In this document: piece after piece, positions 6,794-58,183 of the stretch
Layout: each line of letters begins with the position of its first letter
Numbering within the stretch: position 1 is the stretch's first letter
Sequence record: PQ567651.1
Strand: one strand, 5' to 3'
DNA: 64,000 nucleotides
Source: Escherichia phage cardinal
The notes under the pieces: generated by a model
What the model was told of the DNA's origin: nothing
Seen by the model: the letters and a program-made list of their open reading frames with translations, nothing else
Database searches by the model: none
Program-made: the position numbers and the translations under genes

Positions 6794-7895
6794 TCCTACA
6801 TTATACGGCAAAACTTCTACAGGTAAAATTAAACAATGGTCAGTCTATACCGAAGGTAGTGTTGTAACTGTTGCTCATGGTCAATTAGGTGGAAAGATTA
6901 CTAGCAAATCTTATACAGCAGAACCTAAAAATATTGGTCGCTCAAATGAAACAACAGCAGAAGAACAAGCTGAAATAGAAGCTCTTGCCAAATGGACAAA
7001 GCAACTTAAGAGTGGGTATTATAAAACAAAAGAGGAAGCTGAAAATCATGTTCCTTCCACACCCATGAAATGTCAGGATTATAAAGATTATGCTGATCGT
7101 GTTTTGTTCCCAGGTTATGCACAATATAAATTGAATGGTCTACGTTCAATGATTAACATGCAAGGTGAATGTTTATCTAAAGCTGGGGAGGTATATAAAC
7201 TTCCACCTCACTGGGAAGAAATTCCAACCTTCATTAAAGAAGTAGTTGGTCATCCTCTTGACGGTGAAGTTTTTGCTGGTTTGGGTGTCCTTAGCCTTCA
7301 ACAAATTAATAGTGCGTGGAAAAAGCATAATGCTAACACACCACTTCTTAAATACTATGTATATGATGTTCCTGTGGCATCTGTACCATTTGAGAAGAGG
7401 GTTCAAGTTTTGGCTGCGCTAAAAGAAGTTGTTGAAGATAAAGGTTTAGATGAACTTATTTGTGTAGTACATACAGAGTACATTGAAAACCAAGAACAGT
7501 TTGATGCTTTCTATGCAAAAGCTCTACGTGAGAAAGCGGAAGGTGTGGTGTATCGTAACGCACAAGGTGTTTACGAGTTTGATAAACGTTCTTATGATGT
7601 TATTAAACGTAAACCACGACAGACGCTTGAAGTTAAAGTGGTAAGTGCAAAGCGTGATAAAAATGGTGACGGGGTATTGACAGGCGAGATGGAAAATGGT
7701 AAAGTAGTCGAATTCCTGATGCGTAAGGATTCAGATGAAACCATTAACTATCGTAAAGCAGAAAATGCCGAAATGTTAATTGGTAAATTTGTTGAGATTG
7801 AGTATGAAGAGTTTTCCGATGGTGGAATACCTACGAAACCAACAGGTGTCCGTTTACGTAAGATGATTCCAGGTACTTGGGAACCAGCAGAGTAA
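6780..7895 (+). CDS. ATP-dependent ligase-like nucleotidyltransferase (DNA or RNA ligase)
   Basis: ATG after GGAGG; candidate motif I YKLNGLR (KxNGxR); track ORF starts upstream at 6732. Confidence 0.5.
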   Translation: MKQTNPTLYGKTSTGKIKQWSVYTEGSVVTVAHGQLGGKITSKSYTAEPKNIGRSNETTAEEQAEIEALAKWTKQLKSGYYKTKEEAENHVPSTPMKCQDYKDYADRVLFPGYAQYKLNGLRSMINMQGECLSKAGEVYKLPPHWEEIPTFIKEVVGHPLDGEVFAGLGVLSLQQINSAWKKHNANTPLLKYYVYDVPVASVPFEKRVQVLAALKEVVEDKGLDELICVVHTEYIENQEQFDAFYAKALREKAEGVVYRNAQGVYEFDKRSYDVIKRKPRQTLEVKVVSAKRDKNGDGVLTGEMENGKVVEFLMRKDSDETINYRKAENAEMLIGKFVEIEYEEFSDGGIPTKPTGVRLRKMIPGTWEPAE

Positions 7896-7903
7896 GAGAT
7901 AAT

Positions 7904-8083
7904 ATGGTATTAGTAACAGTTCTTATGATGTTAATTGCTATTGCAATTATAATGTTAGCCTCGTTTCCAGTGGACAAATGGTACTGCAATTTTTGTAGAT
8001 TTGTTGTTTTCCTCTGTGCTGGGGTGTATATGGGCGAATCGGTAGTTCGCATTAGTGTTTTGTTAGAACAATATTTTAAATAA
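7904..8083 (+). CDS. hypothetical small membrane protein
   Basis: hydrophobic stretch VLVTVLMMLIAIAIIMLA; weak RBS. Confidence 0.35.
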   Translation: MVLVTVLMMLIAIAIIMLASFPVDKWYCNFCRFVVFLCAGVYMGESVVRISVLLEQYFK

Positions 8084-21110: not shown

Positions 21111-21308
21111 ATGATGCTAGATCAACTGATCAATGCTCCTCGCGTAACAGTAAGTCCAAAAACATTTGCATCACTTTTAGAAGATGCTAGAGAGGTTTAT
21201 AACTTTACTGAAGAAGAGATTCCTGTTCCTGTTGAAAAAGGTTCCAGATGGTTGTTTTATGAAGGTATTATTTTTACTGAAGGGAATAATTGGAAGGAGA
21301 CTAAATGA
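21111..21308 (+). CDS. hypothetical protein
   Basis: ATG after AAGGAGG within track ORF 21018..21308. Confidence 0.45.
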   Translation: MMLDQLINAPRVTVSPKTFASLLEDAREVYNFTEEEIPVPVEKGSRWLFYEGIIFTEGNNWKETK

Positions 21309-22213
21309 AATACTTAGTAACAGGTGGTTTAGGCTTTATTGGAAGTGCGGTAGTTCGTTTCCTGGCTAAAAACACTAAGAATGATATTTACGTTATAGAT
21401 AAATGGAGTTACGCTTCAGACCCTAGAAATTTATCAGAAACACCTAATGTAAAGTTTTGTCGTGTTGACTTGACAAATGCTCAGTTAACTGCTAAGATTG
21501 TGGCAGATGTTAATCCAGATTATATAATGCATCTTGCAGCAGAAAGTCACGTAGATAACTCAATAGCATCACCGAGTGTTTTTATAAATTCAAATATTGT
21601 TGGAACATTTAATCTTCTAGAAGCTGTTCGTTTAATGGGAGATAAATCAAATCTTAAAATGTTTCATCATATTTCAACAGACTATGTTTTTGATGGGCAT
21701 GTTGCTGGCACAGAAGATAGTAAAACAAACCCCTTGAACACCTACGGTTACAGTAAACAATTAGGTGAAACTTTAGTACAAACAGTTTGTCCTACAGCAC
21801 TTATTATCAGAACAGCTTCTGTTTATAGTGAATTTGGACATAACTTTTTGAAAACTATGTTGGAACGCTACAACGGTGGTCAAAAAGAATTTAATGTAGT
21901 ATGTGATCATTTATCATGTCCTACTTATGCACCTGATCTTGCAGAAACAATTTTTAAACTTGTAAAAGATGGTGTAAATAGTAAAATTGTACACTATGCA
22001 GGTGCAGATTATATTTCTTGGTATGATTTTGCACGAAAGATATTTCTTGTTATAGATTTATCTGTTACAGTTAATCCTGTATCTGCTTCAACCTATAATT
22101 CCAAAGCAGTCAGACCAGCAACATCTTATTTAAGAACAGATCCTACTTTAAATCCGCGAAGTGTTGATAGCGGTATTGTAAGAGCTTTAACTATACTTTT
22201 AAACAAGGAGTGA
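21305..22213 (+). CDS. NAD(P)-dependent epimerase/reductase, RmlD (dTDP-4-dehydrorhamnose reductase)-like
   Basis: Rossmann VTGGLGFIGS and STDYVFDG motif characteristic of RmlD-type reductases. Confidence 0.5.
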   Translation: MKYLVTGGLGFIGSAVVRFLAKNTKNDIYVIDKWSYASDPRNLSETPNVKFCRVDLTNAQLTAKIVADVNPDYIMHLAAESHVDNSIASPSVFINSNIVGTFNLLEAVRLMGDKSNLKMFHHISTDYVFDGHVAGTEDSKTNPLNTYGYSKQLGETLVQTVCPTALIIRTASVYSEFGHNFLKTMLERYNGGQKEFNVVCDHLSCPTYAPDLAETIFKLVKDGVNSKIVHYAGADYISWYDFARKIFLVIDLSVTVNPVSASTYNSKAVRPATSYLRTDPTLNPRSVDSGIVRALTILLNKE

Positions 22214-27469: not shown

Positions 27470-28042
27470 ATGCGTTTAGCTTTTAACGGGAAGATAAGCA
27501 CAGCAAACATATTATCAGCCATAGGATTATTAGGTAAAAAATTCACACCTTTCAGTTTACCTGTTTGTGTAGATTTTGATCATGTATTTGATATTAATAA
27601 TCCTTCACGTTGTATCGCCAGAAGTAATATTGATAACCCAAGTGAAAATCTGTTTTATATTACTAAACCATCCCAGGCAATTTTGAATCAATGGGAAGCA
27701 GGTCTGATTAAACCAGGTAAATATTTTGCATTACTACCTTGTAAATCATTGGCTATAGAGGACAGTCTAAACTATGCAAACAATCTTGTTGTTACAGCAT
27801 TCATTGTCTCAGAAAAAGAAGAAACTGCGGCACTTGCAAACACTGTTAAATCTTTGTATGATGCTTTGGGTGTTACTTACACTACCTTCGTTTGTGAAGA
27901 TATTCCACATTGCGTTGAATTCGTGGTGAATGGTGTAACTGTATGTCGTGTAGAAACAACTCAAGACGAAGACGTTTTTATTACTGTAGCCGATGTAATA
28001 TCTGAACCTGTGTTTAGTTATGCAGTTTCATTAACACATTAA
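27470..28042 (+). CDS. hypothetical protein
   Basis: track ORF. Confidence 0.5.
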   Translation: MRLAFNGKISTANILSAIGLLGKKFTPFSLPVCVDFDHVFDINNPSRCIARSNIDNPSENLFYITKPSQAILNQWEAGLIKPGKYFALLPCKSLAIEDSLNYANNLVVTAFIVSEKEETAALANTVKSLYDALGVTYTTFVCEDIPHCVEFVVNGVTVCRVETTQDEDVFITVADVISEPVFSYAVSLTH

Positions 28043-28052: not shown

Positions 28053-28379
28053 ATGAAAATAACGACAGAACAGGCTTTAATAGACAAAGGAAGGGAAATC
28101 TTAGAAAGTCATTTGGAGGATATTCAAAGGACTCCAGGGTATCTCGGCTGGCGTATACAAGAAGCCGTCGATTTTCTACCCCGTAAAAATAAAGAGATTG
28201 AAGTAAGATCTCTATTCCTCCTTGTTAAAGTAGATGGTGACGCTATATACAAAGATGTAGCGTCTCACATTGAACAAATAGAAGAAAAAGCCTACAAAGA
28301 ATTTGCAGATCTTGTTGTAGAACATAATATAGAAGGTAAAGTTAATATCTTTATACTTATGGATTTTGAGGAGAGTTGA
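28053..28379 (+). CDS. hypothetical protein
   Basis: track ORF, RBS AAGGAGAAGGGG. Confidence 0.5.
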   Translation: MKITTEQALIDKGREILESHLEDIQRTPGYLGWRIQEAVDFLPRKNKEIEVRSLFLLVKVDGDAIYKDVASHIEQIEEKAYKEFADLVVEHNIEGKVNIFILMDFEES

Positions 28380-29121
28380 TGCTAGTATATCAAGAAATTA
28401 GTGTAAAAGATGATCAAGACCTGTTTATTATTGGTGATTTACATGGTTGCTTTGATTGTACCAGAAAGGTGTTAATACTTTAGGTATCCGAGATCAAGAT
28501 GTTGTTGTATCTTTAGGAGATCTTACAGATCGCGGCAAGCAGAATTTTCGTTGTGTTGTTGAATTCACCAGAAAGCTAAATCGTTATGGTATTCGTGGAA
28601 ACCATGAAGATATGATGATTAAAGGGTTGCTAGAAGGTGATAGACGATATTACGAATGTTGGTTTCAGAACGGAGGCCATACAGTTCTAGACGAGTGTGG
28701 AGAAGAGGGTGCAACTGCTCTTGCTTCGATGCTAGAAGATTTACCTGTTGTACTTGTTGTCAATTATCGTAATATGAAACTAGGCTTTATTCACGGTGGG
28801 TATCCTTCAGTTTTGGAACATTTGCCAATAACAGAAGTTTTGCCATTTTGTTTGAATATGAATAAAGAGCAAGTTTCTCGATTCACAGAATCTTTAATGT
28901 GGGATCGTGATATGATAGATTGCGCACTTGAAGGGATTCTTCTTCCTAGAGTTTCAGGAGTAGATTATGTATTTCACGGGCATTCTTATGTTCCTAAACC
29001 TGTGATTAGCAGTAATAGGGTATATATGGACACAGGATCTTGCTTCAATGGTAATTTAACCTTTGCATATTTTGATGATTCAAATACGTTACAATTTTAT
29101 TCTACTTTAGAGGAGGACTAA
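28379..29121 (+). pseudogene. lambda-type Ser/Thr protein phosphatase (PPP family) interrupted by apparent 1-nt frameshift near 28465..28483
   Basis: GDLHGC in frame of ATG 28379, then GDLTDRG, GNHE, HGG, GH in the track frame 28456..29121. Confidence 0.6.
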
Positions 29122-29441
29122 TGTATAAAATCACAATTAAAGAAACAGTAGGAGAACTTACGAAAGAAACTACTATTGAGACGGAAGATGTTGAGTTAGT
29201 CAAAGAGCTTTTATTTCCAAAACCAGAAATAAAAGATAATGATGAACAGTTGGATGAAGATAATGAGACAGCAAGGGATAAATGGAAGAAACAACTAGCG
29301 GAGATTTGGAAAAAGCCTGAAGTAACTCCTCCATTTGATCCTCGTAGACCTTATAATCCTTGGGAAATTGGAAGCCCTTGGTTTACGTACCCTATTACTC
29401 CAATTGTTAATCCAATTGTTACTCCCAATATTACTTGTTAA
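29121..29441 (+). CDS. hypothetical protein
   Basis: track ORF. Confidence 0.5.
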   Translation: MYKITIKETVGELTKETTIETEDVELVKELLFPKPEIKDNDEQLDEDNETARDKWKKQLAEIWKKPEVTPPFDPRRPYNPWEIGSPWFTYPITPIVNPIVTPNITC

Positions 29442-33062: not shown

Positions 33063-33617
33063 ATGGGTTTTGATGATATGTTATTATATGAGGAGGCTTG
33101 TGTGAAAGAAGCTATGGCTTTACCAGTTTTATCTATTGATATTACAACAGTAGACACTTTTTCAGATTGTGAAACGTGTGGATCGTATTCAAGTATTGTA
33201 CATGTGGTCTGTGGGGATTTAGGCACTTACGAAGATGGAGATTATGCAAGTTGTTTAGGTGATAATCAAGATGGTGAAGTGGCAAATGTTGCAAACTGGA
33301 TTGCTTCTAAGTTAAAAGAAAGAAATCGTCCGTTCCCTAATCTTCTTACACCAGAAGCTATGCTTAAAGCTGAACAAGAGATGTATGATTATGGTTATAA
33401 AGTAGATTATGACTATAATGATCCTAATTATAAAAAATTGAGTGACAAGTATTGGGAACTAGCTAACGCTTATGATAAATACTACTCTACAGAAAACATT
33501 GTTAAATTGTTTTTAGATTTTGGAGTAGAAATTAATTGGGATTTCGAAGAGGAAGAGCGTTACGACGCATCTTCTTGGGATGATGATTACGAAGAGGATA
33601 TTGAATGCGAAGAGTAA
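33063..33617 (+). CDS. hypothetical acidic protein
   Basis: ATG after GGAGG within track ORF 33048..33617. Confidence 0.5.
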   Translation: MGFDDMLLYEEACVKEAMALPVLSIDITTVDTFSDCETCGSYSSIVHVVCGDLGTYEDGDYASCLGDNQDGEVANVANWIASKLKERNRPFPNLLTPEAMLKAEQEMYDYGYKVDYDYNDPNYKKLSDKYWELANAYDKYYSTENIVKLFLDFGVEINWDFEEEERYDASSWDDDYEEDIECEE

Positions 33618-46083: not shown

Positions 46084-46542
46084 TTATGCTCCATTAAAGA
46101 CGGGGCGTGTAGCATTACGTTCATCATTCACTGTAATAAGGTTTTTCATAACCATAACACCCTGAATATAGCCTAACCAACGATGGCGTTTGGTTTCAGA
46201 CATACCATTACACCCATCCTGAATTTCATTCAACATCCACAGTAAGTGGGAAGCACCTGTTTCACTGGTATCTGGATCTTCTACAGAACTAAGAATCGTT
46301 TCATAGCGTTCACAAATTTCTGGGTAGAATTCATAATCCTGTTGTACATCTCGCATTTCTCGAATGAAGTGACGAGCAATAGGCTTCCCACGAAAATATT
46401 CATTGATGAAATCAATAACACACATCTCACTGCCTGTCACCACGGAAGGCGTTCCTATGTTAAATTGAACACTCACACCGCATTCTTTTACAAGATTATG
46501 TACACGCTCAGTGTTAGCAAGATACAAAGATACAGTTTTCAT
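46084..46542 (-). CDS. hypothetical protein
   Basis: track ORF, first gene of minus block. Confidence 0.5.
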   Translation of the reverse strand: MKTVSLYLANTERVHNLVKECGVSVQFNIGTPSVVTGSEMCVIDFINEYFRGKPIARHFIREMRDVQQDYEFYPEICERYETILSSVEDPDTSETGASHLLWMLNEIQDGCNGMSETKRHRWLGYIQGVMVMKNLITVNDERNATRPVFNGA

Positions 46543-47000
46543 TTACACCTCTCATTAGTAGTTTGTTATGCGCGATATTGCATATTTTATGGAACACAGT
46601 GTACAGACATTTCTATTCAATGCAAGCATTATTTGCATCTTATAAATTTACGTCTCATGCCACACATCATACAGCGTCTTTTCATCTATTACAAGAACAG
46701 CAACCTAGGAACATCATTAATGGAGGGATTAGTATAGGGATTAGTATAGGATTTCCCTATCAATTATTCTATATATACCTAATATTTTTAACACACCCCT
46801 TTGTACATAATATAGACAAATAAATATCTATGCCACAAAAATTTTCTGGTATACCCGATTTATTTCGACACACCCCCTTTTCATAAGCGTAAAGTCAATA
46901 ATATCAATAACTTGCCGCAAAATACTGCTCGCTTGCGAGAGGTGCTTAACGCGATTTTCAGCGCCCCCCCGATTTCTGCCGACCGTCCCCCTCAAATATC

Positions 47001-47037
47001 AATGAGAATAATTATCATTTGCATTATCATTCAATGA
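47001..47037. promoter_or_regulatory. Fur-box-like AT palindrome cluster
   Basis: aatgagaataattatcatttgcattatcattcaatga. Confidence 0.35.
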
Positions 47038-47198
47038 CTTATAAGACTTTTGATTATTTTCTGAGCAAGAAAGGTACTACTCACAACAAAACAGATAAAT
47101 TCTAAGTAAATCAATGGCTTGGCAAGTCTAAACATCTATATACACCTTGCCAAATGAAATGATCTGGCGTGAAATAGTGCCACCCGTGGAAGATAGCT

Positions 47199-47219
47199 GA
47201 TAATGATTATCATTTGCAT
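47199..47219. promoter_or_regulatory. Fur-box-like palindrome
   Basis: gataatgattatcatttgcat vs Fur box GATAATGATAATCATTATC. Confidence 0.4.
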
Positions 47220-47451
47220 ACTTTCTGTACTATAAAACCGACTAAAAATCAAGATAATTCTGATTTATTGCGCTTTTAAGAGAGTAGGCTCAACAAATAA
47301 CAACAAATGAGGTATGTTATAGGGGCAATAGTATGAAAAATCATCTATTCAGATGTAAATAATTTTGCGCAATAGTGGTAATATTTTTCTTGACAAGAAA
47401 GATTTCTTTGTGTGCACATAGCGCCCCTGGAGGGTGGCGCATTATGATCAT

Positions 47452-47505
47452 CAGTGTCATTATTCATTTCAGTGTCATTATTCATTTCAGTGTCATTATT
47501 CACCA
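47452..47505. repeat. 3 tandem copies of 18-bp unit cagtgtcattattcattt
   Basis: perfect copies 1-2, third diverges at end. Confidence 0.8.
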
Positions 47506-48120
47506 TGTTTATTATTGCATAGCTTATTATATGGAGCTTATATTATAGCCAATGTTCTAAACATTAGCTAATAATAACGCACCGCAACAATGTAAGGGAT
47601 ACAATATACCATGTATATTGTTGCGCTTGCAATTGTTGCAAGCTACATAAGCACAAATAATAACTATCGGTGATGGTTATTATGTGGGGTGTGTAGTTGC
47701 GTTATTATTAGCCGCCTATGTGTCCGGCATAGGCTGCTAATGATACGCTTGCGAATTATATTTCTTGTTATAGTTATTGTATGGAATGATTACTACATGA
47801 AATGGTTACTGTATGAAATGATTATCTAAGTAATAGATAGGAAGGTAAAGATTAGATCATAAATAGATAGGATGTGAATTATTTAGTAATGTTACTAACA
47901 ATTTAATAGTTACTTTGTGCAACAATTCGATAGATTATAATTGTAGTTTTAAGGGTTAGATAGATTATATTTAGCTTAGTAATGATTTATATTAGTTATT
48001 ATTGTTTAATACAATGTTATCAATGAGATAGTAACAGTAAGTTATAAATAAAGGTGAGATAATTAGTTTTAATTTAGTTAGATAACTTATTATTTTATAG
48101 GTTAGATGGTCTTAAGTTAA

Positions 48121-48196
48121 GAATGATTCTCATTATTGCATTATGCAATTTATTGCATAAATAATCAGCTATAAATAAGAATGATTATCATTTAAG
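48121..48196. promoter_or_regulatory. Fur-box-like palindromes
   Basis: gaatgattctcattattgcattatgcaat...aagaatgattatcatttaag. Confidence 0.35.
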
Positions 48197-48406
48197 AGGA
48201 AAGACAAGAAAAAGGCTGTTTTTGCCAGGTAATTACATGAAGAAATTAAAAATAAGCGGTCTAAAACACGTTGTAAGCGCCTTATGATCTTCATGGTATG
48301 GTTGTTCATCTGCTCCTTGATTAGCTCGATACCGCGATCTATTCACTTTTTTCGGTGAACGTTTTTGATAGGTAAAAGCTATCATCTTTATTTAGGTAAA
48401 AAGAAA

Positions 48407-48423
48407 GGGCGCAATAAGCGCCC
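48407..48423 (-). terminator. terminator hairpin gggcgc-aataa-gcgccc at end of minus block
   Basis: minus strand reads hairpin then TTTCTTTTT; same hairpin (opposite orientation) at 52283. Confidence 0.6.
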
Positions 48424-48439
48424 TTGTTTGAAATGTTAT

Positions 48440-48811
48440 TTACTGATAAGCTGGATCGTTTGTTATATCAATCCAATGAGATAAATTAATTTTATTTTTT
48501 GCTTTCATTTTCTCGATCAAACGTTCGGCTAATGTTTCTGAACGAATATAAACATGCTCGCTAAAATCTTGCCCCGTTTCTTCGTCGATCATTTCTCTAT
48601 ATTCAACCTTGCCGATAAACGCATAAGTTTTACCCGTGTACCAGTTATGTAAATGGATCTCGCATTTATAATCATCGCTATACCCTTCGGTTGTTCTAAC
48701 TTCAACCAAGTCACCTTTAAACACTGATAAGCACCACATAGGATCACGATCTACAGCGCCGTTAAAATCTTTACCGTTTACAGTAGCCGCCAGGTTGATG
48801 ATATTGCTCAT
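48440..48811 (-). CDS. hypothetical protein
   Basis: track ORF. Confidence 0.5.
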   Translation of the reverse strand: MSNIINLAATVNGKDFNGAVDRDPMWCLSVFKGDLVEVRTTEGYSDDYKCEIHLHNWYTGKTYAFIGKVEYREMIDEETGQDFSEHVYIRSETLAERLIEKMKAKNKINLSHWIDITNDPAYQ

Positions 48812-48886
48812 GGTGATTCCTCGTTTACCGTTTAAAATGATTTGCCCTACACGATAACTATAAGTTAACAGAGGCTATAAAGCAAG

Positions 48887-49117
48887 TTATTTTTCAAAAA
48901 ATTTTTCTACTGTGATATTCTTCCCAGTGGGATTAGCTACTTTCAAAATTTTATCATGTACTGGACGCCCAAAAGAATAAGATCCGTATACAGTAAACCA
49001 ATAATCACCGTCAGGCTGTACTATCACCGCTGCATAGGGTACGCCTTTTTCGTTATTGCTGACAGAATAGATCACATTGCCGTTAATAGCTTCAGCGCGT
49101 TTAATTTGTTCGATCAT
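48887..49117 (-). CDS. hypothetical protein
   Basis: track ORF. Confidence 0.5.
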   Translation of the reverse strand: MIEQIKRAEAINGNVIYSVSNNEKGVPYAAVIVQPDGDYWFTVYGSYSFGRPVHDKILKVANPTGKNITVEKFFEK

Positions 49118-49136
49118 GATATGATTCCTATATTGA

Positions 49137-49196
49137 GCGGGAAACCACTTCCCGCCTTACGTGATACATCTTAGTATAAGGGCGATCCGGTGTCAA
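49137..49196 (-). promoter_or_regulatory. promoter + stem-loop cassette (PeSL-like)
   Basis: minus: TTGACA-17-TAAGAT-GTATCAC..GGCGGGAAGTGGTTTCCCGC. Confidence 0.55.
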
Positions 49197-49324
49197 TAGG
49201 TAGAATTGTAAAGATTTGATAGTTTATTTCTTTGATGTTTTGTTATTTGATAGGTGGAAGCTATCAATATATAATAAGATCGTCCGGTGATTATCTTCCC
49301 CTGCTCCCAGGTGCCGCCCGTTCA

Positions 49325-49365
49325 ATAAGCATAACAAAAAACAGGACAAAAACAAGCCCTGTTTT
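49325..49365 (-). terminator. rho-independent terminator after 49373..49576
   Basis: minus: ACAGG-loop-CCTGT followed by TTTTTTGTT. Confidence 0.5.
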
Positions 49366-49372
49366 GTAAAGA

Positions 49373-49576
49373 TTAGATGATCTGCATATCCTCCACGATA
49401 ATTTCTAATTTCCAAACAAGATGATCTAAGCTCCCTGATAAAAATGATTCCGATACATAACCGCCATCTGACACCGTAGCAAGGATCTCGCCATTTGCTT
49501 GCTCTTTGATTTGAACATCCAGGCGGTTAGCCTTTGCTTTATTCAGGACGGCGATCAGGCGGTTAGCTGTAGTCAT
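49373..49576 (-). CDS. hypothetical protein
   Basis: track ORF. Confidence 0.5.
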   Translation of the reverse strand: MTTANRLIAVLNKAKANRLDVQIKEQANGEILATVSDGGYVSESFLSGSLDHLVWKLEIIVEDMQII

Positions 49577-49598
49577 GGTGTTTTCCTTCCAGTTGTGA

Positions 49599-49654
49599 GC
49601 GGCACTATTGCCGCCCTACGAAATACATTCTACCCGATTTATAATTGTTGTCAA
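49599..49654 (-). promoter_or_regulatory. promoter + stem-loop cassette (PeSL-like)
   Basis: minus: TTGACA-16-TAGAAT...GGCGGCAATAGTGCCGC. Confidence 0.5.
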
Positions 49655-49655
49655 A

Positions 49656-49925
49656 CTATTTTTTCAAGCTCGACCAGTCAAAACACGGGGCGATCTCGTT
49701 AAAACTTGTACCATGTAAAGCACATAATTTTTTAGCAATAGCCGCCGTAACCTGGCGTTGTACGCGCGGATCTGCTACTGATTGGAGAAAATAGGCGGTT
49801 TTATATGTGATCATGCTTTCGCCTGTTTCCTTGTTAACGTGGTGCACGGTTTTAGCCTTATCATCTTTTACCAGGGTGTAACCGGATTCGATGGCCTTGA
49901 TTGCAACGTCCAAAGATATTTTCAT
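49656..49925 (-). CDS. hypothetical protein
   Basis: track ORF. Confidence 0.5.
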   Translation of the reverse strand: MKISLDVAIKAIESGYTLVKDDKAKTVHHVNKETGESMITYKTAYFLQSVADPRVQRQVTAAIAKKLCALHGTSFNEIAPCFDWSSLKK

Positions 49926-49945
49926 GATTTACCTCTTTATTGACG

Positions 49946-49965
49946 GCGGGGAATACTCCCCCGCC
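49946..49965 (-). promoter_or_regulatory. leader stem-loop ggcgggg/ccccgcc
   Basis: GC hairpin of cassette family upstream of 49656..49925; no clear -35. Confidence 0.4.
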
Positions 49966-49972
49966 TTATTAA

Positions 49973-50143
49973 TTACTCTTCATCGTCGCCGTTATAGTAT
50001 TCAATGCCGTTTTCATCGGTTACAGTAATGTTAACGCCACCGATAGCAACACGATCACGGGCAAACGTCATGGCTTCATTTAAATCTTCAGACCAAAAAA
50101 TATTGTGACCTTTGCGCGATACATAAAACATAGTTGGGATCAT
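49973..50143 (-). CDS. small hypothetical protein
   Basis: 57 aa ORF filling gap between cassettes. Confidence 0.35.
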   Translation of the reverse strand: MIPTMFYVSRKGHNIFWSEDLNEAMTFARDRVAIGGVNITVTDENGIEYYNGDDEE

Positions 50144-50165
50144 GATTTGTTTCTCTTCTGTTGTG

Positions 50166-50226
50166 AGCGGGAAACCATTTCCCGCCCTATGTGATAAACT
50201 TTACTACGTTGTTTGCCTAGTGTCAA
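50166..50226 (-). promoter_or_regulatory. promoter + stem-loop cassette (PeSL-like)
   Basis: plus: gcgggaaaccatttcccgccctatgtgata...tgtcaa. Confidence 0.5.
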
Positions 50227-50227
50227 A

Positions 50228-50512
50228 TTATTTTTTAATGTTTTGCCCTACAAAATTGATCACTTCCTTAAGCTGTTTCTCAGTCATGATCGTGCCTGGT
50301 AATTCTTCTTTGATTTCTTCCGGTAGATAGATATTACCGCGCCAGGTTAATAAACAACCGTTTTGATCTTCGCAGATAGAATAAGAGAAGATCCACTCAT
50401 TATCATTCTCAAGCTCCCAAAAGCACAAAAAATCTTCTTTCCCTAAATTTTCAACGGTTAAACATAATCCGCGACGTGCTGCATAGTTGGAAAGTGCTTT
50501 TGTGATCTTCAT
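50228..50512 (-). CDS. hypothetical protein
   Basis: track ORF. Confidence 0.5.
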   Translation of the reverse strand: MKITKALSNYAARRGLCLTVENLGKEDFLCFWELENDNEWIFSYSICEDQNGCLLTWRGNIYLPEEIKEELPGTIMTEKQLKEVINFVGQNIKK

Positions 50513-50531
50513 AGCTTATCTCTTCTGTTAA

Positions 50532-50594
50532 GGCGGGGAAACCATTTCCCCGCTCTATGAGATACAATATACTATCTGTTAGGTGTGCTGTCAA
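50532..50594 (-). promoter_or_regulatory. promoter + stem-loop cassette (PeSL-like)
   Basis: plus: ggcggggaaaccatttccccgc...tgtcaa. Confidence 0.5.
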
Positions 50595-50918
50595 TCAATA
50601 ATCTTTAAGATTTTCTACATTTACAAAAGTGCGTTTATTTTCTAAGTTTTCGCCGTACCATTGCCCCATGTTGATTTCTGCGGTGCGCAACCAGGACATG
50701 CCGCGCTCTATCTTTTTACTTGCAATCTCGATCCGGCTTTTGCATAGTGCTTTCGCTTGCAATGTAAAAACACTATTGCCCTGTAATGCTTCCAGGTCAT
50801 CATGTGCAAGGCGATACTCTTTAAAGCCTGATTCTATCATTTCAATAGCATCAAGTAAACGCGCGCGATGATAGAAAAAATCAGAGTTATCCAAATAAAC
50901 ACCGATCACAGATTTCAT
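50595..50918 (-). CDS. hypothetical protein
   Basis: track ORF, internal ATG start. Confidence 0.45.
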   Translation of the reverse strand: MKSVIGVYLDNSDFFYHRARLLDAIEMIESGFKEYRLAHDDLEALQGNSVFTLQAKALCKSRIEIASKKIERGMSWLRTAEINMGQWYGENLENKRTFVNVENLKDY

Positions 50919-51247
50919 AATTTTACCCTTTTGTTTGCGGCCTTTGCCGTTTTCAAGATATAGTTTAAAGCATAACAAAAAATTGTCAAGCCTTTAAAGC
51001 GTACAACTATAAAACCTATTAAAACACAATGTATAACAACATGGCTATAGTAGCAATACAACATAAAGCCATGCTTGTTTTCCTTCCTTCCTCGTATGCT
51101 GGATTTATTACGCTATATTGTACGGGAATAATTTTCATGCTGTTTCCTTAATGTCTTAAAACGTGGTTTACAATAGAAACAAGCATACAGAAGAAAAAAG
51201 ATCCTGTCAATAAGATACCGAAAAATAAATGTAAATAGGGCATGGTT

Positions 51248-51550
51248 TTACTCCTTAAAAAAATCATTGACAATTAAACTGATAACGCCCAGCACCAGAT
51301 CACCAGGTAGTGCCGCGCTTTCGTTGTTGCTTGTTTGCACTTCCTCACTAGTACCAGCACGATAGATTGCATGGTAAGCAATAGTATAATAACCTTTCGT
51401 TATTTCTTTAAGATTAATGATTAGCACGTTATTTGTTTCATCTTGAAACAATTTAGCGGTGATAGTATTGTTTTCTTTTACACTATCGACTTTTATTGAT
51501 GGATCATTTACACCAGAAAAAAGAAAAAACGTTTTAGCTATGCCGTTCAT
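51248..51550 (-). CDS. hypothetical protein
   Basis: track ORF. Confidence 0.5.
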   Translation of the reverse strand: MNGIAKTFFLFSGVNDPSIKVDSVKENNTITAKLFQDETNNVLIINLKEITKGYYTIAYHAIYRAGTSEEVQTSNNESAALPGDLVLGVISLIVNDFFKE

Positions 51551-51597
51551 GTAGTTCTCCTTTGTTGTGTGTATCTTATAACGTGCTTTCTATGTTG

Positions 51598-51999
51598 TCA
51601 ATCTTTTATCTCGGTGCATTTTGCCAGGGTATACGTTGCAAGTGCTGACACTAGTTTTTCATTGCTACGATCTGCGGCTGTACTGTGTACTTTTTGAATA
51701 CTTTTTAACCACGGCGTAAAATTTTGAGTAGTCAGCACACTGGTAATAATTTCACATGGCACATCTTCATTTAAGCCGTTAACAATAGATTTATCTATTT
51801 TTGCCGTTAGTTGTGTAACAGCACCATAAGCGATCATGTGTGAATCCTCCATGATTTCATCGGGGATCGCATTATTAATAAGCATGACGTTTTCCATTGC
51901 ATCAACGGCGCTTAATTCTGCTACTGTGGAGGATATCGCCGCGCTAGATGTTCCAACCATGCCAAAAGAGATTAAACCAGCGATCAATAATTTTTTCAT
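51598..51999 (-). CDS. secreted protein with signal peptide
   Basis: MKKLLIAGLISFGMVGTSSAA signal-peptide-like. Confidence 0.5.
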   Translation of the reverse strand: MKKLLIAGLISFGMVGTSSAAISSTVAELSAVDAMENVMLINNAIPDEIMEDSHMIAYGAVTQLTAKIDKSIVNGLNEDVPCEIITSVLTTQNFTPWLKSIQKVHSTAADRSNEKLVSALATYTLAKCTEIKD

Positions 52000-52007
52000 T
52001 TCTTGCC

Positions 52008-52190
52008 TCATATATGTTTTATTGAGATTATATTGTCACTATATACAACGTTTTTCAACGTGTCAATAAAAATCTTATTGCCTTCAATCCCCAGGATCAC
52101 GCCGCTAGTTATGAAGCCATATTGATCACGATATCGGGCGCATAACCTTTGCCCCTGGGCTAGTGCCTTGCTTATTTCGTCTAATTTCAT
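52008..52190 (-). CDS. hypothetical protein
   Basis: track ORF. Confidence 0.45.
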   Translation of the reverse strand: MKLDEISKALAQGQRLCARYRDQYGFITSGVILGIEGNKIFIDTLKNVVYSDNIISIKHI

Positions 52191-52282
52191 TTTTAAAGCT
52201 CCTGTAAAGCCGTCTAACGTTGATTTATAGGCTTATCCTGGCGTTACCATTGCCTATGGGTAACAAGCCTCTATATAAGCTA

Positions 52283-52310
52283 AAAGGGCGCTTATTGCGC
52301 CCTTTTTTGT
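52283..52310. terminator. bidirectional terminator hairpin gggcgc-ttatt-gcgccc
   Basis: aaaagggcgcttattgcgcccttttttg. Confidence 0.55.
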
Positions 52311-52447
52311 TATTCGTTCCAGTATCTTTTTGTGCTGCGATCTCTTTTTGTTTTGTTCCGCTTGTCGCCTTTTTTGGTGATCTCTTCGTTCCAATTTTTA
52401 CGCGCCTTGCTGCGGTTGAATTTTTCGATCTGCTGTGATGCGTTCAT
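52310..52447 (-). CDS. small basic protein
   Basis: 45 aa ORF with AAGAGGAAG RBS. Confidence 0.3.
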   Translation of the reverse strand: MNASQQIEKFNRSKARKNWNEEITKKGDKRNKTKRDRSTKRYWNE

Positions 52448-52462
52448 GTTTCTTCCTCTTAA

Positions 52463-52822
52463 TTACGCCACGTTATGCTGTTTTGCCAGGATTACGATCA
52501 TGCTTGCAATATATAACCAATAATTTTCCCGCTCACGGGTAACGGTTGTTTCTTTGCTTGTTTCTTTTATGTACTTCCATTCAATTAACAAGTGATCGAT
52601 CTCGTTATAATCAAAAGCAATATTGATTTCTGACGGTAAACCTTGTAACCAGGAGGCTATCGCCTTGATCATGTTGTGATTGTAACGTTTTTGATTATCG
52701 GGATACCAGTATTCAGATGTAAAACGGCGCATCAGTTCGGTGATCTTTTCTTTTTCTGTTGTAGTACCCTCAAAAGAAATAGCCGACACAATGTAAGTTT
52801 TAATTGCTTTTACTGATTTCAT
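52463..52822 (-). CDS. hypothetical protein
   Basis: track ORF. Confidence 0.5.
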   Translation of the reverse strand: MKSVKAIKTYIVSAISFEGTTTEKEKITELMRRFTSEYWYPDNQKRYNHNMIKAIASWLQGLPSEINIAFDYNEIDHLLIEWKYIKETSKETTVTRERENYWLYIASMIVILAKQHNVA

Positions 52823-52842
52823 AATCTTATCTCTTTATTGTT

Positions 52843-52901
52843 GGCGGGAAACCATTCCCCGCCGTTGTTGTTACTTTACTTATAAATGATGCTACTGTCA
52901 A
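52843..52901 (-). promoter_or_regulatory. promoter + stem-loop cassette (PeSL-like)
   Basis: plus: ggcgggaaaccattccccgcc...tgtcaa. Confidence 0.5.
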
Positions 52902-52908
52902 ACGGATA

Positions 52909-53079
52909 TTATTTGTTTTTTAACGTTAATGTTCCCAGCTTATCAGCGTGACGCAGACCAGGAAAGATCCATTTTCCTGATTCATCTTTTACCGGGGCTT
53001 TAAGCGTAGCGCCCAGGTTGGCGGCATTAACTTTACGTGCAACGTTGCGAGCGGCTTCACGGGTAGCGAAAGTGATCAT
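52909..53079 (-). CDS. small hypothetical protein
   Basis: 56 aa ORF with GAAGAGGAAA RBS. Confidence 0.35.
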   Translation of the reverse strand: MITFATREAARNVARKVNAANLGATLKAPVKDESGKWIFPGLRHADKLGTLTLKNK

Positions 53080-53103
53080 GATGTTTTCCTCTTCTCTTTG
53101 TTA

Positions 53104-53188
53104 GGCGGTGGGCTATTCCACCGCCTTGATGAATACAGTTTACTTTATTTTTGCAGTATTGCAAGCGGTTTTATGAAATAAATGTCAA
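53104..53188 (-). promoter_or_regulatory. stem-loop + TTGACA element (cassette variant)
   Basis: plus: ggcggtgggctattccaccgcc...tgtcaa. Confidence 0.4.
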
Positions 53189-53386
53189 AGTAAAATCATA
53201 ATCTTTTGACAGTTTATATTGCACCTTGTTACCGTATATGTCACCTTTACGTAAAGATCCGCGAATACCTATTACATCCTTTACATCTTTAAGATTTTTC
53301 ACGCCTGTAATGTCTTTATTGAAATGATCGTGATCAGAAAATAAAACCTGCTTTGCATTTTTTAACAGTGTGCGGATATTAGCCAT
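53171..53386 (-). CDS. hypothetical protein
   Basis: track ORF. Confidence 0.5.
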   Translation of the reverse strand: MANIRTLLKNAKQVLFSDHDHFNKDITGVKNLKDVKDVIGIRGSLRKGDIYGNKVQYKLSKDYDFTLTFIS

Positions 53387-53407
53387 TTGATAATCTCTCT
53401 TACTAGG

Positions 53408-53464
53408 GGCGGCACTATTGCCGCCCTATGCATTACATTTTACTGATTTTAGTTATCTTGTCAA
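53408..53464 (-). promoter_or_regulatory. promoter + stem-loop cassette (PeSL-like)
   Basis: plus: ggcggcactattgccgcc...tgtcaa. Confidence 0.5.
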
Positions 53465-53472
53465 TATTATTT

Positions 53473-53700
53473 TTAGTTTAATTGATCCAGGCACAACAAG
53501 CGATCAACATTCAGATCGGTTAGGCTAATCGTTGGCACCTGGTAGGATTCGATGTACTCAACGCTCGACCATTGCCCGAAGTTAGCGACCGCCCAGCTAT
53601 TCAAGGAAGAGTGAAGATCATCCCCTTTCTTCTCGGTGATAACTGCTACTACCTGGGAGCTTCCAACCGTACCGGATACGCGAACAATAACGATAGCCAT
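53473..53700 (-). CDS. hypothetical protein
   Basis: track ORF. Confidence 0.5.
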   Translation of the reverse strand: MAIVIVRVSGTVGSSQVVAVITEKKGDDLHSSLNSWAVANFGQWSSVEYIESYQVPTISLTDLNVDRLLCLDQLN

Positions 53701-53722
53701 AATGATAACCTTTCTTTGATTT

Positions 53723-53782
53723 GGCGGGAAACCATTTCCCGCCCTATGTGATATATCTTACACTAATTTAAAACGTTGTCAA
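53723..53782 (-). promoter_or_regulatory. promoter + stem-loop cassette (PeSL-like)
   Basis: plus: ggcgggaaaccatttcccgccctatgtgatatatctta...tgtcaa. Confidence 0.55.
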
Positions 53783-53877
53783 ATTATTTTCTATTTCTTC
53801 CGTAATAGCCCAATTTATGATCTAAGCTAAAACGTTTTGTGAGATAGGTCGAACGATGTTTCATTTTTATGTCTCCT

Positions 53878-54117
53878 TTACATTCCAACCATAGCGGCAC
53901 GGATCGCGGTTTTACTGAACTTGAATCCGTCTGGCGTTTTATCTTGATCCATACTTTCAAGAAATAACATCATATCCCGCGCTGCGTCATTCTTATTGGT
54001 GTTAGCTGCGATAAATTCACGCGCAAGATTATAAAAACCTTCATCGTTGTTGATCCAAAGGCTTACATTCCAATGAGTTTTGTTTTTGTGACCTAAGAAC
54101 ATTTTAGATTTAGCCAT
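53878..54117 (-). CDS. hypothetical protein
   Basis: track ORF. Confidence 0.5.
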   Translation of the reverse strand: MAKSKMFLGHKNKTHWNVSLWINNDEGFYNLAREFIAANTNKNDAARDMMLFLESMDQDKTPDGFKFSKTAIRAAMVGM

Positions 54118-54141
54118 GATGTTAATCTCTTTTTCAGTGAG

Positions 54142-54199
54142 GCGGGAACTATTCCCGCTCTCGATATAAGTATTATATGCTTTTTATTCGTGCTGTCAA
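54142..54199 (-). promoter_or_regulatory. promoter + stem-loop cassette (PeSL-like)
   Basis: plus: gcgggaactattcccgc...tgtcaa. Confidence 0.5.
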
Positions 54200-54205
54200 T
54201 GCTTT

Positions 54206-54571
54206 TTATAAATCTTTTTTACGTTTAACATCGCTTGCATGACTGTATACAGCGATCCCATTATCACGGCAAAAACGGGAAAGATACGCGCCGCGTGAAA
54301 ACTCTTTGCCCTCCAGGTTGATAACCTTGCTAAACTCTTCCAGGGCGACGGTATCAAAATGATCCCCATAACCATATTGAAACGGAACGTTAACGACTTC
54401 AATCAGTTTACCGCCGATCTCAACGTCAACCATCAAAGAGAAATAAGTATTACCATAAGACTTTTGAAACCAGCGACGGGCGCTAATATGTACCGCTTCA
54501 ATGCTGGATAGTTCAATTTTAGCAGTGTTAGCCAGGGTAGCATAAGCAGAAACATTGATATTTTTAGCCAT
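54206..54571 (-). CDS. hypothetical protein
   Basis: track ORF; preferred over overlapping 54196..54402. Confidence 0.5.
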   Translation of the reverse strand: MAKNINVSAYATLANTAKIELSSIEAVHISARRWFQKSYGNTYFSLMVDVEIGGKLIEVVNVPFQYGYGDHFDTVALEEFSKVINLEGKEFSRGAYLSRFCRDNGIAVYSHASDVKRKKDL

Positions 54572-54666
54572 AGTCTTTAATCTCTTTTGATTAGTTAGGA
54601 GTATTCCCGATAAAAGTTATTATGCTTGTACTATCGTTCGTTGTCAATAGCACAAGACTAAAACTT

Positions 54667-54848
54667 TTAACGATAATCATCATAGGCTTTATTGACCTGG
54701 CGAATATAGCATTCAAAAGCTAGATCAATAGATTTATATTCACGGATATAATCACCATAGGAAACCACATACATTTCTATAGCTTCCTCATATGCCAGGA
54801 TGATAGAATCTAAACCTACGATCTCAGTCTTTGCAATAATAGCCATGC
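54667..54848 (-). CDS. small hypothetical protein
   Basis: 59 aa ORF with TAAGGAA RBS. Confidence 0.35.
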
Positions 54849-54932
54849 TTTTATTCCTTAGTAATGTTTCAATCTATATAAGCATTATAGCTTACTGATT
54901 TCAGGTGTCAAGTGATTTTTTATTTCACCTTA

Positions 54933-54989
54933 TGGGGCGTTGCCCCGCTTTATGTGGTACATATTACGGGGCTTGTTCGCATATGTCAA
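54933..54989 (-). promoter_or_regulatory. stem-loop + TTGACA element (cassette variant)
   Basis: plus: ggggcgttgccccgc...tgtcaa. Confidence 0.4.
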
Positions 54990-54992
54990 GCC

Positions 54993-55547
54993 TTACACAA
55001 GACAATTTTCATAATTTTTTAGGGCTTGTCTTTTTTCCTCTTCCGTCGGCATGTATGGCTGGATCTCTTCCTCTTCCAGGGTAGGCATGATTTCTTCCTC
55101 TTCCTCCTGGTCGTCCTGGTCTTCCTCTTGCGCTACTGCAACAAGTTTATTGATCTTCTCCTGGGCTTTAATCAATTTTGCATCTAGCACCATTTTAGCG
55201 GTGTTGTATACCGTCCATGCCATGCGTTTTTCTTCGTATGCTTTATCTAGTGCGGCTAATTTAGCGGGATACTCTTCCAACACCTTAAAAGCCGGATCAA
55301 TGCTGTATAAGGGATTATTTTTAGCGTCATCGCTTGGATCTGCGGCGCTTGCAATGTCAGCGTTGCCATTCGCCAGCCATCCAGGGCGAACGGATCGCGC
55401 CTTTGTGTTGCCGTTGCTCTTTGCCGCTCGATTTCCTATCTGCTCCCCGCTATACCCTACCATGTGATCGATCATGTCATCTGGTATTATGCGCGGATCA
55501 TTAGCGTCATGCTTTACCCAGGACTGGATCACATATTCACGCCCCAT
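54993..55547 (-). CDS. hypothetical protein with acidic C-terminus
   Basis: track ORF. Confidence 0.5.
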   Translation of the reverse strand: MGREYVIQSWVKHDANDPRIIPDDMIDHMVGYSGEQIGNRAAKSNGNTKARSVRPGWLANGNADIASAADPSDDAKNNPLYSIDPAFKVLEEYPAKLAALDKAYEEKRMAWTVYNTAKMVLDAKLIKAQEKINKLVAVAQEEDQDDQEEEEEIMPTLEEEEIQPYMPTEEEKRQALKNYENCLV

Positions 55548-55809
55548 GTTCGTTCGCCTCTTCTGTTAGTAGTTTACATACCTTAAACATGCTTGCCGCG
55601 TCTTTTGACGGTAGCCAGCCTATGCGATACACTCCAGGATCTGGATTCGTTATATCTGTTAATTGAGCGTTACGATGATTAAAAATAGTGTAACCGCCGC
55701 CAGCACGGGGATAAACATTATCTTTAAACCTGATAGCGTATCTCGCCAGGTTGAACGTTGTAGCATGTTCAAAAGCGATCACATTATCAAAAACTTTTAG
55801 AAAAAACAA
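55537..55809 (-). CDS. hypothetical protein
   Basis: track ORF. Confidence 0.5.
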   Translation of the reverse strand: MFFLKVFDNVIAFEHATTFNLARYAIRFKDNVYPRAGGGYTIFNHRNAQLTDITNPDPGVYRIGWLPSKDAASMFKVCKLLTEEANEHGA

Positions 55810-55810
55810 G

Positions 55811-55957
55811 ATTATCCTCCCCAGCGTTTAAAGCCCGTTGCACGGTTATTTTTTAACTCTCGTTTTAGTCTCTTGCAACGGTTTACAAGTGCAAACCGTG
55901 CCGGAGTGGTAACAGTAGCGCCGTTTTTGGTGTGAATACTCATTACATATTGTTTCA
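55811..55957 (-). CDS. small basic protein
   Basis: 48 aa ORF with AGGA RBS. Confidence 0.3.
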
Positions 55958-55976
55958 TAAAGTTTTATCCTATGTA

Positions 55977-56030
55977 AGCGGGAACTATTCCCGCTTTAAG
56001 ATAGCTTATCAGGTTTTAGTGCAATGTCAA
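55977..56030 (-). promoter_or_regulatory. promoter + stem-loop cassette (PeSL-like)
   Basis: plus: gcgggaactattcccgctttaagatagc...tgtcaa. Confidence 0.5.
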
Positions 56031-56036
56031 CCGTTT

Positions 56037-56399: not shown

Positions 56400-56424
56400 T
56401 GTGTTACCCTTTCTTTGATGGCCT

Positions 56425-56484: not shown

Positions 56485-56503
56485 GAATATTTTTTAGATA
56501 ATT

Positions 56504-56785: not shown

Positions 56786-56796
56786 AGTGTGCGCCT

Positions 56797-57436: not shown

Positions 57437-57438
57437 TA

Positions 57439-58180: not shown

Positions 58181-58183
58181 CGC

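What the first reader, a model, noticed from the sequence alone, without database searches (positions are those of the whole stretch)
28379..29121. Lambda-type Ser/Thr phosphatase split by a 1-nt frameshift
The metal-binding motif GDLHGC is encoded in the frame of ATG 28379, which stops at TAG about 28481..28483. The rest of the PPP signature (GDLTDRG, GNHE, later HGG/GH) is in the -1 frame that the track reports from 28456. A single-base indel around ccagaaaggtg would restore one reading frame.
Basis: seen in the sequence. Interest (0 to 1): 0.45.

Follow-up and report, generated by a model that had tools for sequence, protein, structure and literature searches.

The report
Frameshifted phage NinI-like phosphatase gene
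A well-known, dispensable phage gene for a lambda-type protein phosphatase is broken here by the loss of a single T; the break is seen only in this phage isolate, so it is an ordinary knockout allele (or, less likely, a sequencing error), not a new kind of gene.

Summary
The window comes from a phi92-like coliphage (Justusliebigvirus). Its homologue of phi92 gp049, a NinI/lambda-PP-type Ser/Thr phosphatase of 247 aa, is split in two. ORF A (28379-28483, 34 aa) carries GDLHG. ORF B (28456-29121, 221 aa) carries GDLTDRG, GNHE and the later His ligands.

The lesion is one missing T in a TTT run (tt at 28456-28457; p.Leu27Cysfs*9).

All 55 related phage records and 2 metagenome contigs have the intact allele. 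Motif I (D20, H22, G23) is invariant in homologues down to 29% identity. There is no slippery heptamer or stimulatory RNA structure, so this is not recoding.

A read-level Logan assembly of one SRA run (SRR33749226) reproduces the split. It also reproduces two of at least five other private simple-repeat frameshifts, and a private 2.3 kb microhomology deletion in the rhamnose genes.

Most likely this is a real, recent null allele of a non-essential accessory gene in a lineage that is losing accessory genes (about 0.68). A platform or consensus artefact remains possible (about 0.27). Interest is low.

The parts
28379..28483 (+). ORF A: the N-terminal fragment of the phosphatase gene. It has 26 native residues including motif I GDLHG (28433-28447; metal ligands D20 and H22), then 8 out-of-frame residues (CTRKVLIL) and TAG. 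Its ATG overlaps the TGA of the upstream gene and is preceded by the SD-like GAGGAGAG at 28368-28375.
   Evidence: identical to phi92 gp049 residues 1-26.
28456..28457 (+). The lesion: a TT run that is TTT in every relative. It is a 1-nt deletion spanning codons 26/27 (GAT TTG becomes GAT TGT), p.Leu27Cysfs*9.
   Evidence: Alignment A1. All 55 phage records show 162 vs 161 nt or 159 vs 158 nt. Two metagenome contigs carry the 31-nt intact allele. Private against 4 genomes.
28456..29121 (+). ORF B: the remaining 221 codons of the phosphatase in the -1 frame. It holds GDLTDRG (28516-28536), GNHE (28597-28608), H139 (IHGG) and GH (H202). It lacks motif I and has no SD before its TTG. Its TAA overlaps the ATG of the next gene (TAATG).
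   Evidence: Metallophos 4.6e-9; 98.6% identical to muut gp175 residues 27-247.
28053..28379 (+). Upstream co-directional gene (108 aa, phrog_15398, function unknown), with stop/start overlap to the phosphatase gene.
29121..29441 (+). Downstream co-directional gene (106 aa, phrog_15301, function unknown) with its own SD (GAGGAGGA). Little polarity from the frameshift is therefore expected.

Best explanation
The locus is the Justusliebigvirus orthologue of phi92 gp049, a NinI/lambda-PP-type metallophosphatase (PPP superfamily) that sits inside a long, tightly packed early or middle operon.

In this one phage genome a replication-slippage event removed one T from a TTT run at codons 26/27. Translation from the normal ATG then ends after 34 residues. 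The remaining 221 codons have no ribosome-binding site and lack the invariant motif I ligands Asp20 and His22. No active phosphatase should be made, so this is a recent null allele (pseudogene).

The phage tolerates the loss because phosphatases of this type are accessory: lambda ninI and P1 ppp are non-essential.

The lesion belongs to a wider private load of loss-of-function changes in accessory genes of the same genome. These comprise at least five more simple-repeat frameshifts and a 2.3 kb microhomology deletion, which points to relaxed selection on accessory genes in this lineage.

Shown: the lesion itself, that it is unique to this genome, the family assignment, invariance of the lost motif, absence of recoding signals, and reproduction in a read-level assembly. 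Inferred: that the change is in the DNA and not in the base calls, that the products are inactive, and why the lineage accumulates such lesions.
For: - **Intact relatives.** Phi92, KMB37, PHB05 and muut carry one 744-nt ORF here. None of 55 phage records or 2 metagenome contigs carries the deletion. Every listed member of the 105-member protein cluster is 247 aa except this 221-aa product.
- **Family assignment.** Lambda PP 1G5B matches at E 1.1e-29 and PHROG 246 at 1.2e-75. D20, H22, G23, D48, D51, R52, G53, G74, N75, H76, H139, G201 and H202 are invariant in 28 homologues.
- **Recent event.** The 161 nt around the site are otherwise identical to 22 relatives. ORF B is 98.6% identical to muut.
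- **Read-level support.** A Logan assembly of SRR33749226 has a 63,127-nt and a 71,993-nt contig. The sampled stretches of these contigs that overlap the window (about 16.8 kb) are 100% identical to it. It carries the same split phosphatase, split ATPase, truncated gp153 homologue and RmlB/RmlD chimera. The window spans both contigs and the gap between them, so it comes from a different assembly.
- **Lesion types.** They include T3 to T2, a TG dinucleotide loss and a 2.34 kb deletion between 14-nt repeats. These are not typical majority base-calling errors.
- **Distribution.** No frameshifts occur in window 1-26 kb (ligase, exonucleases, ThyA, NrdAB) or in the 2.8 kb helicase beyond the window.
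- **Dispensability.** Lambda ninI and P1 ppp are scored non-essential (PMC10695390).
Against: - The window has significantly more ORF-breaking private indels per private substitution than four control genomes: 5-8 per 179 against 3 per 847, Fisher p 1e-4 to 6e-3. All but one are in homopolymers. That is also the signature of an error-prone platform or consensus.
- The sequencing platform of SRR33749226 is unknown to me.
- The Logan assembly and the window's source probably rest on the same reads, so a systematic read error would appear in both.
- I could not see read-level allele fractions.
- The positional argument that frameshifts avoid core genes is weak (p about 0.04 by length).
Confidence: 0.68

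Rival explanations
1. Sequencing or consensus artefact. The phage really has TTT and an intact 247-aa phosphatase. The missing T and the other private homopolymer indels would be miscalls of the platform used for this genome, carried into every assembly made from those reads.
For: The window has 6 private frame-breaking indels in simple repeats in 64 kb, plus one more frame-breaking indel in the 9.6 kb beyond its end (compared with muut only). Four related genomes have 0-2, with similar or higher private substitution counts. All but one are 1-nt homopolymer length changes (T4 to T5 twice, A5 to A6, A6 to A7, T3 to T2). The allele occurs in exactly one run.
Against: Two different assemblies agree at 100% over the roughly 16.8 kb compared, including the phosphatase, gp153, gp104 and ATPase indel sites and the rml junction. 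A k-mer assembly yielding 63 kb and 72 kb contigs implies accurate reads. Runs of 2-3 T and a TG dinucleotide are not sites of majority miscalls on common platforms. This rests on my own knowledge of platform error profiles and was not tested here. The same genome carries a 2.34 kb deletion that cannot be a base-calling error. Long core genes are clean.
Confidence: 0.27
2. Programmed -1 ribosomal frameshifting, or leaky slippage at A_AAG (28465-28468), restores a full-length phosphatase, so the split is a recoding feature and not a defect.
For: ORF B is in the -1 frame and overlaps ORF A by 28 nt. The overlap contains an A_AAG tetramer on which tRNA-Lys can slip. The product would differ from wild type at only three residues (27-29).
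Against: There is no X_XXY_YYZ heptamer in the overlap. The 92 nt downstream fold no better than shuffles (z 0.15). In 57 of 57 other sequences the gene is a single ORF with identical flanking sequence, so no frameshift signal has been selected. Any slippage would be background level.
Confidence: 0.02
3. The two pieces are functional as they stand: an N-terminally truncated phosphatase from ORF B, or a two-chain enzyme reconstituted from ORF A and ORF B.
For: ORF B retains motifs II and III and the later His ligands, and it is still called as a gene with a Metallophos hit.
Against: D20 and H22 of motif I are invariant in all 28 aligned homologues, and no homologue starts downstream of motif I. 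In lambda PP these two residues bind one of the two catalytic metals (crystal structure 1G5B; my knowledge of that structure). ORF B starts at TTG with no SD. ORF A ends in 8 aberrant residues.
Confidence: 0.02

Closest known systems
Escherichia phage phi92 gp049 (YP_009012380.1) and its Justusliebigvirus orthologues, annotated 'NinI-like serine-threonine phosphatase'
   Same: Same locus, same neighbours (gp050 upstream; gp048 and the DprA-like gp047 downstream), and 97-99% nucleotide identity. The two window fragments together cover all 247 residues.
   Different: The window lacks one T of the TTT at codons 26/27, so the gene is split into 34-aa and 221-aa ORFs. All 55 records have it intact.
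Bacteriophage lambda Ser/Thr protein phosphatase (NinI, Orf221; PDB 1G5B)
   Same: PPP-superfamily fold signature: GDxHG, GDxxDRG, GNHE and the later His ligands, aligned over residues 3-230 at E 1.1e-29. It is non-essential in its phage.
   Different: Sequence relationship is only distant, with about 25 extra residues in the middle (an insertion after IHGGYP). The genomic context differs: a virulent 146-kb myovirus operon versus the lambda nin region. In this window the gene is frameshifted.
E. coli PrpA / PrpB protein-serine/threonine phosphatases (NCBIfam NF008516, NF007425)
   Same: Same lambda-PP-like subfamily. These are the best NCBIfam hits (4.8e-27 and 1.2e-22).
   Different: Scores of 95 and 81 bits fall far below the equivalog cut-offs of 326 and 332 bits. 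It is a homologue, not an equivalog.

Membership tests
Lambda-PP / NinI-like PPP-family Ser/Thr phosphatase | Motif I GDxHG (metal ligands Asp20, His22) | tested here: met
   GDLHG at 28433-28447, but only in ORF A. Invariant D20, H22 and G23 in alignment A2.
Lambda-PP / NinI-like PPP-family Ser/Thr phosphatase | Motif II GDxxDRG and motif III GNH[E/D] | tested here: met
   GDLTDRG at 28516-28536 and GNHE at 28597-28608, both in ORF B. D48, D51, R52, G53, G74, N75 and H76 are invariant.
Lambda-PP / NinI-like PPP-family Ser/Thr phosphatase | C-terminal His ligands (lambda H139 and H186 equivalents) | tested here: met
   H139 (IHGG) and G201-H202 (FHGHS) are invariant in A2 and align to the lambda PP 'HAD' and 'GH' positions.
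Lambda-PP / NinI-like PPP-family Ser/Thr phosphatase | Significant full-length sequence similarity to characterised members | tested here: met
   Repaired protein: 1G5B at 1.1e-29 over residues 3-230; PHROG 246 at 1.2e-75; Pfam Metallophos above the gathering score for ORF B.
Lambda-PP / NinI-like PPP-family Ser/Thr phosphatase | All catalytic motifs encoded in one uninterrupted polypeptide | tested here: not met
   Motif I and motifs II-III lie in different frames, separated by TAG 28481-28483. The feature is met in all 57 other sequences. The window therefore holds a disrupted allele of a family member, not a functional member.
Lambda-PP / NinI-like PPP-family Ser/Thr phosphatase | Mn2+/Ni2+-dependent phosphoprotein phosphatase activity | not testable with these tools
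   Needs an enzyme assay of the repaired protein and of ORF B.
Programmed -1 ribosomal frameshift site | Slippery heptamer X_XXY_YYZ in the overlap of the two frames | tested here: not met
   None found in 28379-28483. Only an A_AAG tetramer is present at 28465-28468.
Programmed -1 ribosomal frameshift site | Stimulatory downstream RNA structure | tested here: not met
   28469-28560 has an MFE of -16.5 kcal/mol against a shuffle mean of -16.9, z 0.15.
Programmed -1 ribosomal frameshift site | Two-frame arrangement conserved among relatives | tested here: not met
   None of 55 phage records or 2 metagenome contigs share the two-frame arrangement.
E. coli PrpA/PrpB equivalogs (NCBIfam NF008516 / NF007425) | Score above the curated equivalog cut-off | tested here: not met
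   95.4 bits against a cut-off of 326, and 80.7 bits against 332.

The most novel reading that the evidence does not exclude
The frameshift may be one symptom of an unusual lineage, not an isolated accident. This phage carries a significant excess of private simple-repeat indels (5-8 per 179 private substitutions, against 3 per 847 in four relatives). It also has a microhomology deletion, while its substitution load and transition/transversion ratio are normal. That pattern would fit a slippage-specific mutator condition, such as an altered replicase or proofreading subunit, or propagation in a mismatch-repair-deficient host. It would equally fit long serial passage that is stripping accessory genes. 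Either case would give a natural experiment on which Justusliebigvirus accessory genes are dispensable: the phosphatase, the AAA ATPase N-terminus, the NADAR protein and the dTDP-rhamnose pathway.
Probability: 0.1. Interest if true: 0.4.

Novelty: already known. Interest (0 to 1): 0.12.

Why it matters
It matters little beyond annotation quality. If real, it shows that the NinI-like phosphatase is dispensable for propagation of a phi92-like phage. The same would hold for the other genes hit, such as the dTDP-rhamnose genes. That is useful for people engineering or minimising these therapeutic-candidate phages. If it is an artefact, it flags the source assembly as needing polishing before its gene calls are trusted. 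Either way the locus should be annotated as a frameshifted NinI-like phosphatase (pseudogene), not as two genes.

Tried and rejected
- **Recoding.** I scanned for slippery heptamers and folded the downstream RNA. Neither supports it.
- **Naturally short homologues lacking motif I.** A survey of 50 homologues and a 28-sequence alignment found none. The two short hits are not such forms: one (208 aa) keeps motif I and has an internal gap, the other (152 aa) is a partial hit that I did not align.
- **The deletion allele elsewhere.** IMG/VR holds neither allele, so it is uninformative. Metagenomes hold only the intact allele, twice. GTDB genomes hold none.
- **The repaired protein as a minor variant or in another sample.** The exact sequence is not in the 15-billion-protein collection.
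- **Source and platform of SRR33749226.** A literature search found no paper citing the run. The Intesti-cocktail Justusliebigvirus study deposits in ENA under PRJEB96854, so it is not the source.
- **Raw count of private indels as a quality indicator.** It does not discriminate (window 11, others 4-8). Only the ORF-breaking subset does.
- **Extension upstream of the window through the read-level contig.** This failed because the chosen marker protein (RPPK) is identical in many phages, and other contigs were returned.
- **Local promoters or terminators.** The scan found nothing above chance.

Full report
**What is in the sequence**

The window between 28379 and 29121 holds two overlapping + strand ORFs.

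- ORF A runs from ATG 28379 to TAG 28481-28483. It reads MLVYQEISVKDDQDLFIIGDLHGCFDCTRKVLIL, with GDLHG at 28433-28447.
- ORF B opens at 28456, directly after a TGA at 28453-28455 in that frame, and runs 221 codons to TAA 29119-29121. It contains GDLTDRG (28516-28536), GNHE (28597-28608), IHGG and FHGHS.
- ORF B is in the -1 frame relative to ORF A.
- ORF B alone passes Pfam Metallophos (4.6e-9).

**What genome this is**

Megablast places the window in the phi92-like coliphages (Stephanstirmvirinae, Justusliebigvirus). There are 55 records at 95-99.5% identity, and none is identical. In phi92, KMB37, PHB05 and muut the locus is a single 744-nt gene, phi92 gp049, annotated 'NinI-like serine-threonine phosphatase'. 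It is flanked by the same small genes and linked to them by stop/start overlaps.

**The lesion**

Aligning the window with three relatives shows a single difference in length. Relatives read GCTTTGATTTGTACC and the window reads GCTTTGATTGTACC. One T of a TTT run spanning codons 26/27 is missing, leaving tt at 28456-28457. The change is p.Leu27Cysfs*9.

**How widespread the deletion is**

- With a 161-nt query, every one of the 55 records aligns with one extra base, 162 vs 161 or 159 vs 158.
- A pattern that accepts either allele found two metagenome contigs, both with the 31-nt intact form.
- The pattern was absent from IMG/VR and from the GTDB genomes.
- In the 90%-identity protein cluster of 105 members, every listed member is 247 aa except this 221-aa product.
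- The surrounding 161 nt are otherwise identical to 22 relatives.

The event is therefore private to this genome and recent.

**Family membership**

- The repaired protein matches lambda phosphatase (PDB 1G5B) over residues 3-230 at E 1.1e-29.
- It matches PHROG 246 at 1.2e-75.
- It matches E. coli PrpA and PrpB models well below their equivalog cut-offs.
- Fifty homologues down to 32% identity are almost all 243-260 aa with full query coverage.
- In a 28-sequence alignment D20, H22, G23, D48, D51, R52, G53, G74, N75, H76, H139, G201 and H202 are invariant.

ORF B lacks two invariant metal ligands. It also starts at a TTG with no Shine-Dalgarno sequence. I infer that it is neither efficiently made nor active.

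**Recoding**

The overlap 28456-28483 contains no X_XXY_YYZ heptamer, only an A_AAG. The 92 nt downstream fold no better than shuffled sequence (z 0.15). The two-frame arrangement is not conserved in any relative. Programmed frameshifting is rejected. Background slippage at A_AAG cannot be excluded but would be minor.

**Real mutation or artefact**

*Evidence consistent with an artefact.* Comparison with phage muut showed further frame-breaking small indels in genes that are intact in muut:

| Window position | Change | Gene affected |
|---|---|---|
| 26347 | ins T | gp180 homologue |
| 38022 | ins A | gp153 homologue |
| 43263 | del TG | gp137 homologue |
| 59102 | ins T | gp104 homologue (NADAR domain) |
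| 62020 | ins A | AAA ATPase gp102 homologue |

- All are private against muut, alia, VEcB and A150.
- The ATPase site is private against 55 records and the gp137 site against 35 records.
- The raw number of private small indels is unremarkable: window 11, controls 4-8.
- Only in the window do many of them break long open frames.
- Relative to private substitutions (179 in the window, 146-307 in the controls, with normal transition/transversion ratios), the excess is significant, at Fisher p 1e-4 to 6e-3.
- Such an excess is what an error-prone assembly would show.

*Evidence for a real mutation.*

- The exact 221-aa and 34-aa products occur in a Logan assembly of one SRA run, SRR33749226.
- That assembly has a 63,127-nt and a 71,993-nt contig. 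The sampled stretches that overlap the window (about 16.8 kb) are 100% identical to it.
- It reproduces the split ATPase, the truncated gp153 homologue and the deletion described below.
- The window spans both contigs and the 8.9 kb between them, so it comes from a different assembly of what is evidently the same phage.
- Long k-mer contigs and perfect agreement between two assemblers suggest accurate reads.
- The lesions include a T3 to T2 change and a TG dinucleotide loss. Beyond the window end there is also a T2 to T1 change.
- The genome also has a private 2.34 kb deletion between two 14-nt direct repeats (CATATTTCAACAGA, junction 21668-21681). It fuses an RmlB-like N-terminus in frame to an RmlD-like C-terminus and removes rmlA and rmlC. 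This cannot be a base-calling error.
- No frameshift lies in window 1-26 kb (ligase, exonucleases, thymidylate synthase, NrdAB) or in the 2.8 kb helicase beyond the window. This positional argument is weak (p about 0.04).

I put a real mutation at about 0.68 and an artefact at about 0.27. Read-level allele fractions would settle it.

**Consequence**

Lambda ninI and P1 ppp are scored non-essential (PMC10695390), so a null allele is tolerable. The downstream gene has its own SD (GAGGAGGA before ATG 29121), and no local promoters or terminators rise above chance. Polarity should be small.

**Verdict**

It is an ordinary frameshift-inactivated allele, or a miscalled copy, of a known, well-annotated accessory gene. 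The only mildly interesting aspect is the genome-wide pattern of private accessory-gene lesions in this isolate.

Noticed in passing
window 21305-22213 (junction 21668-21681): A private 2.34 kb in-frame deletion lies between two 14-nt direct repeats (CATATTTCAACAGA, encoding the HISTD motif of both enzymes). It fuses an RmlB-like dTDP-glucose dehydratase N-terminus to an RmlD-like reductase C-terminus (a 302-aa chimera) and removes rmlA and rmlC. Muut, alia, VEcB and A150 have the full cluster, and all listed relatives span at least 2.3 kb more. The chimera occurs only in SRR33749226.
   Followed up: yes
window 62020 (ORFs 62008-62139 and 61011-62045, minus strand): A private extra A (A6 to A7) splits the AAA-ATPase gene (375 aa in muut gp102) into 43-aa and 344-aa ORFs. 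It is absent from all 55 related records and present in the Logan contig.
   Followed up: yes
window 43263, 38022, 59102, 26347: Four more private frame-breaking indels in simple repeats: del TG in the gp137 homologue (194 aa), ins A in the gp153 homologue (82 aa), ins T in the NADAR-domain gp104 homologue (183 aa), and ins T giving a stop at codon 11 of the gp180 homologue (67 aa).
   Followed up: partly
L016 about 7661 (1.9 kb beyond the window end): A 1-nt deletion (TT to T) sits at about codon 62 of the 88-aa gp085 homologue, and no gene is called there in the Logan contig. The adjacent 924-aa UvrD-type helicase with weak intein hits is intact.
   Followed up: partly
window 7858-8067 and 33580-33607: Relative to muut the window lacks an HNH endonuclease gene (muut gp217) and a 246-aa hypothetical gene (muut gp166). 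Most other relatives also lack the second, so these look like ordinary presence/absence polymorphisms of mobile or accessory genes.
   Followed up: no
window about 46500-58300: This is the most divergent part of the window against relatives (83-96% identity, many indels, repeat regions annotated in muut). The read-level Logan contigs break on either side of it, at about 47480 and 56426.
   Followed up: no
window 27470-28042: The 190-aa protein two genes upstream is annotated 'histidyl tRNA synthetase' in RefSeq relatives but has no Pfam hit at E 0.01 or better. The name looks unsupported.
   Followed up: no
GenBank MG065639, MG065645, MG065656, MG065689 (L008): Four 'UNVERIFIED Campylobacter phage' records are 97.5% identical to this coliphage genus and are classified as Justusliebigvirus. 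The host label is probably wrong, or the records are contaminants.
   Followed up: no
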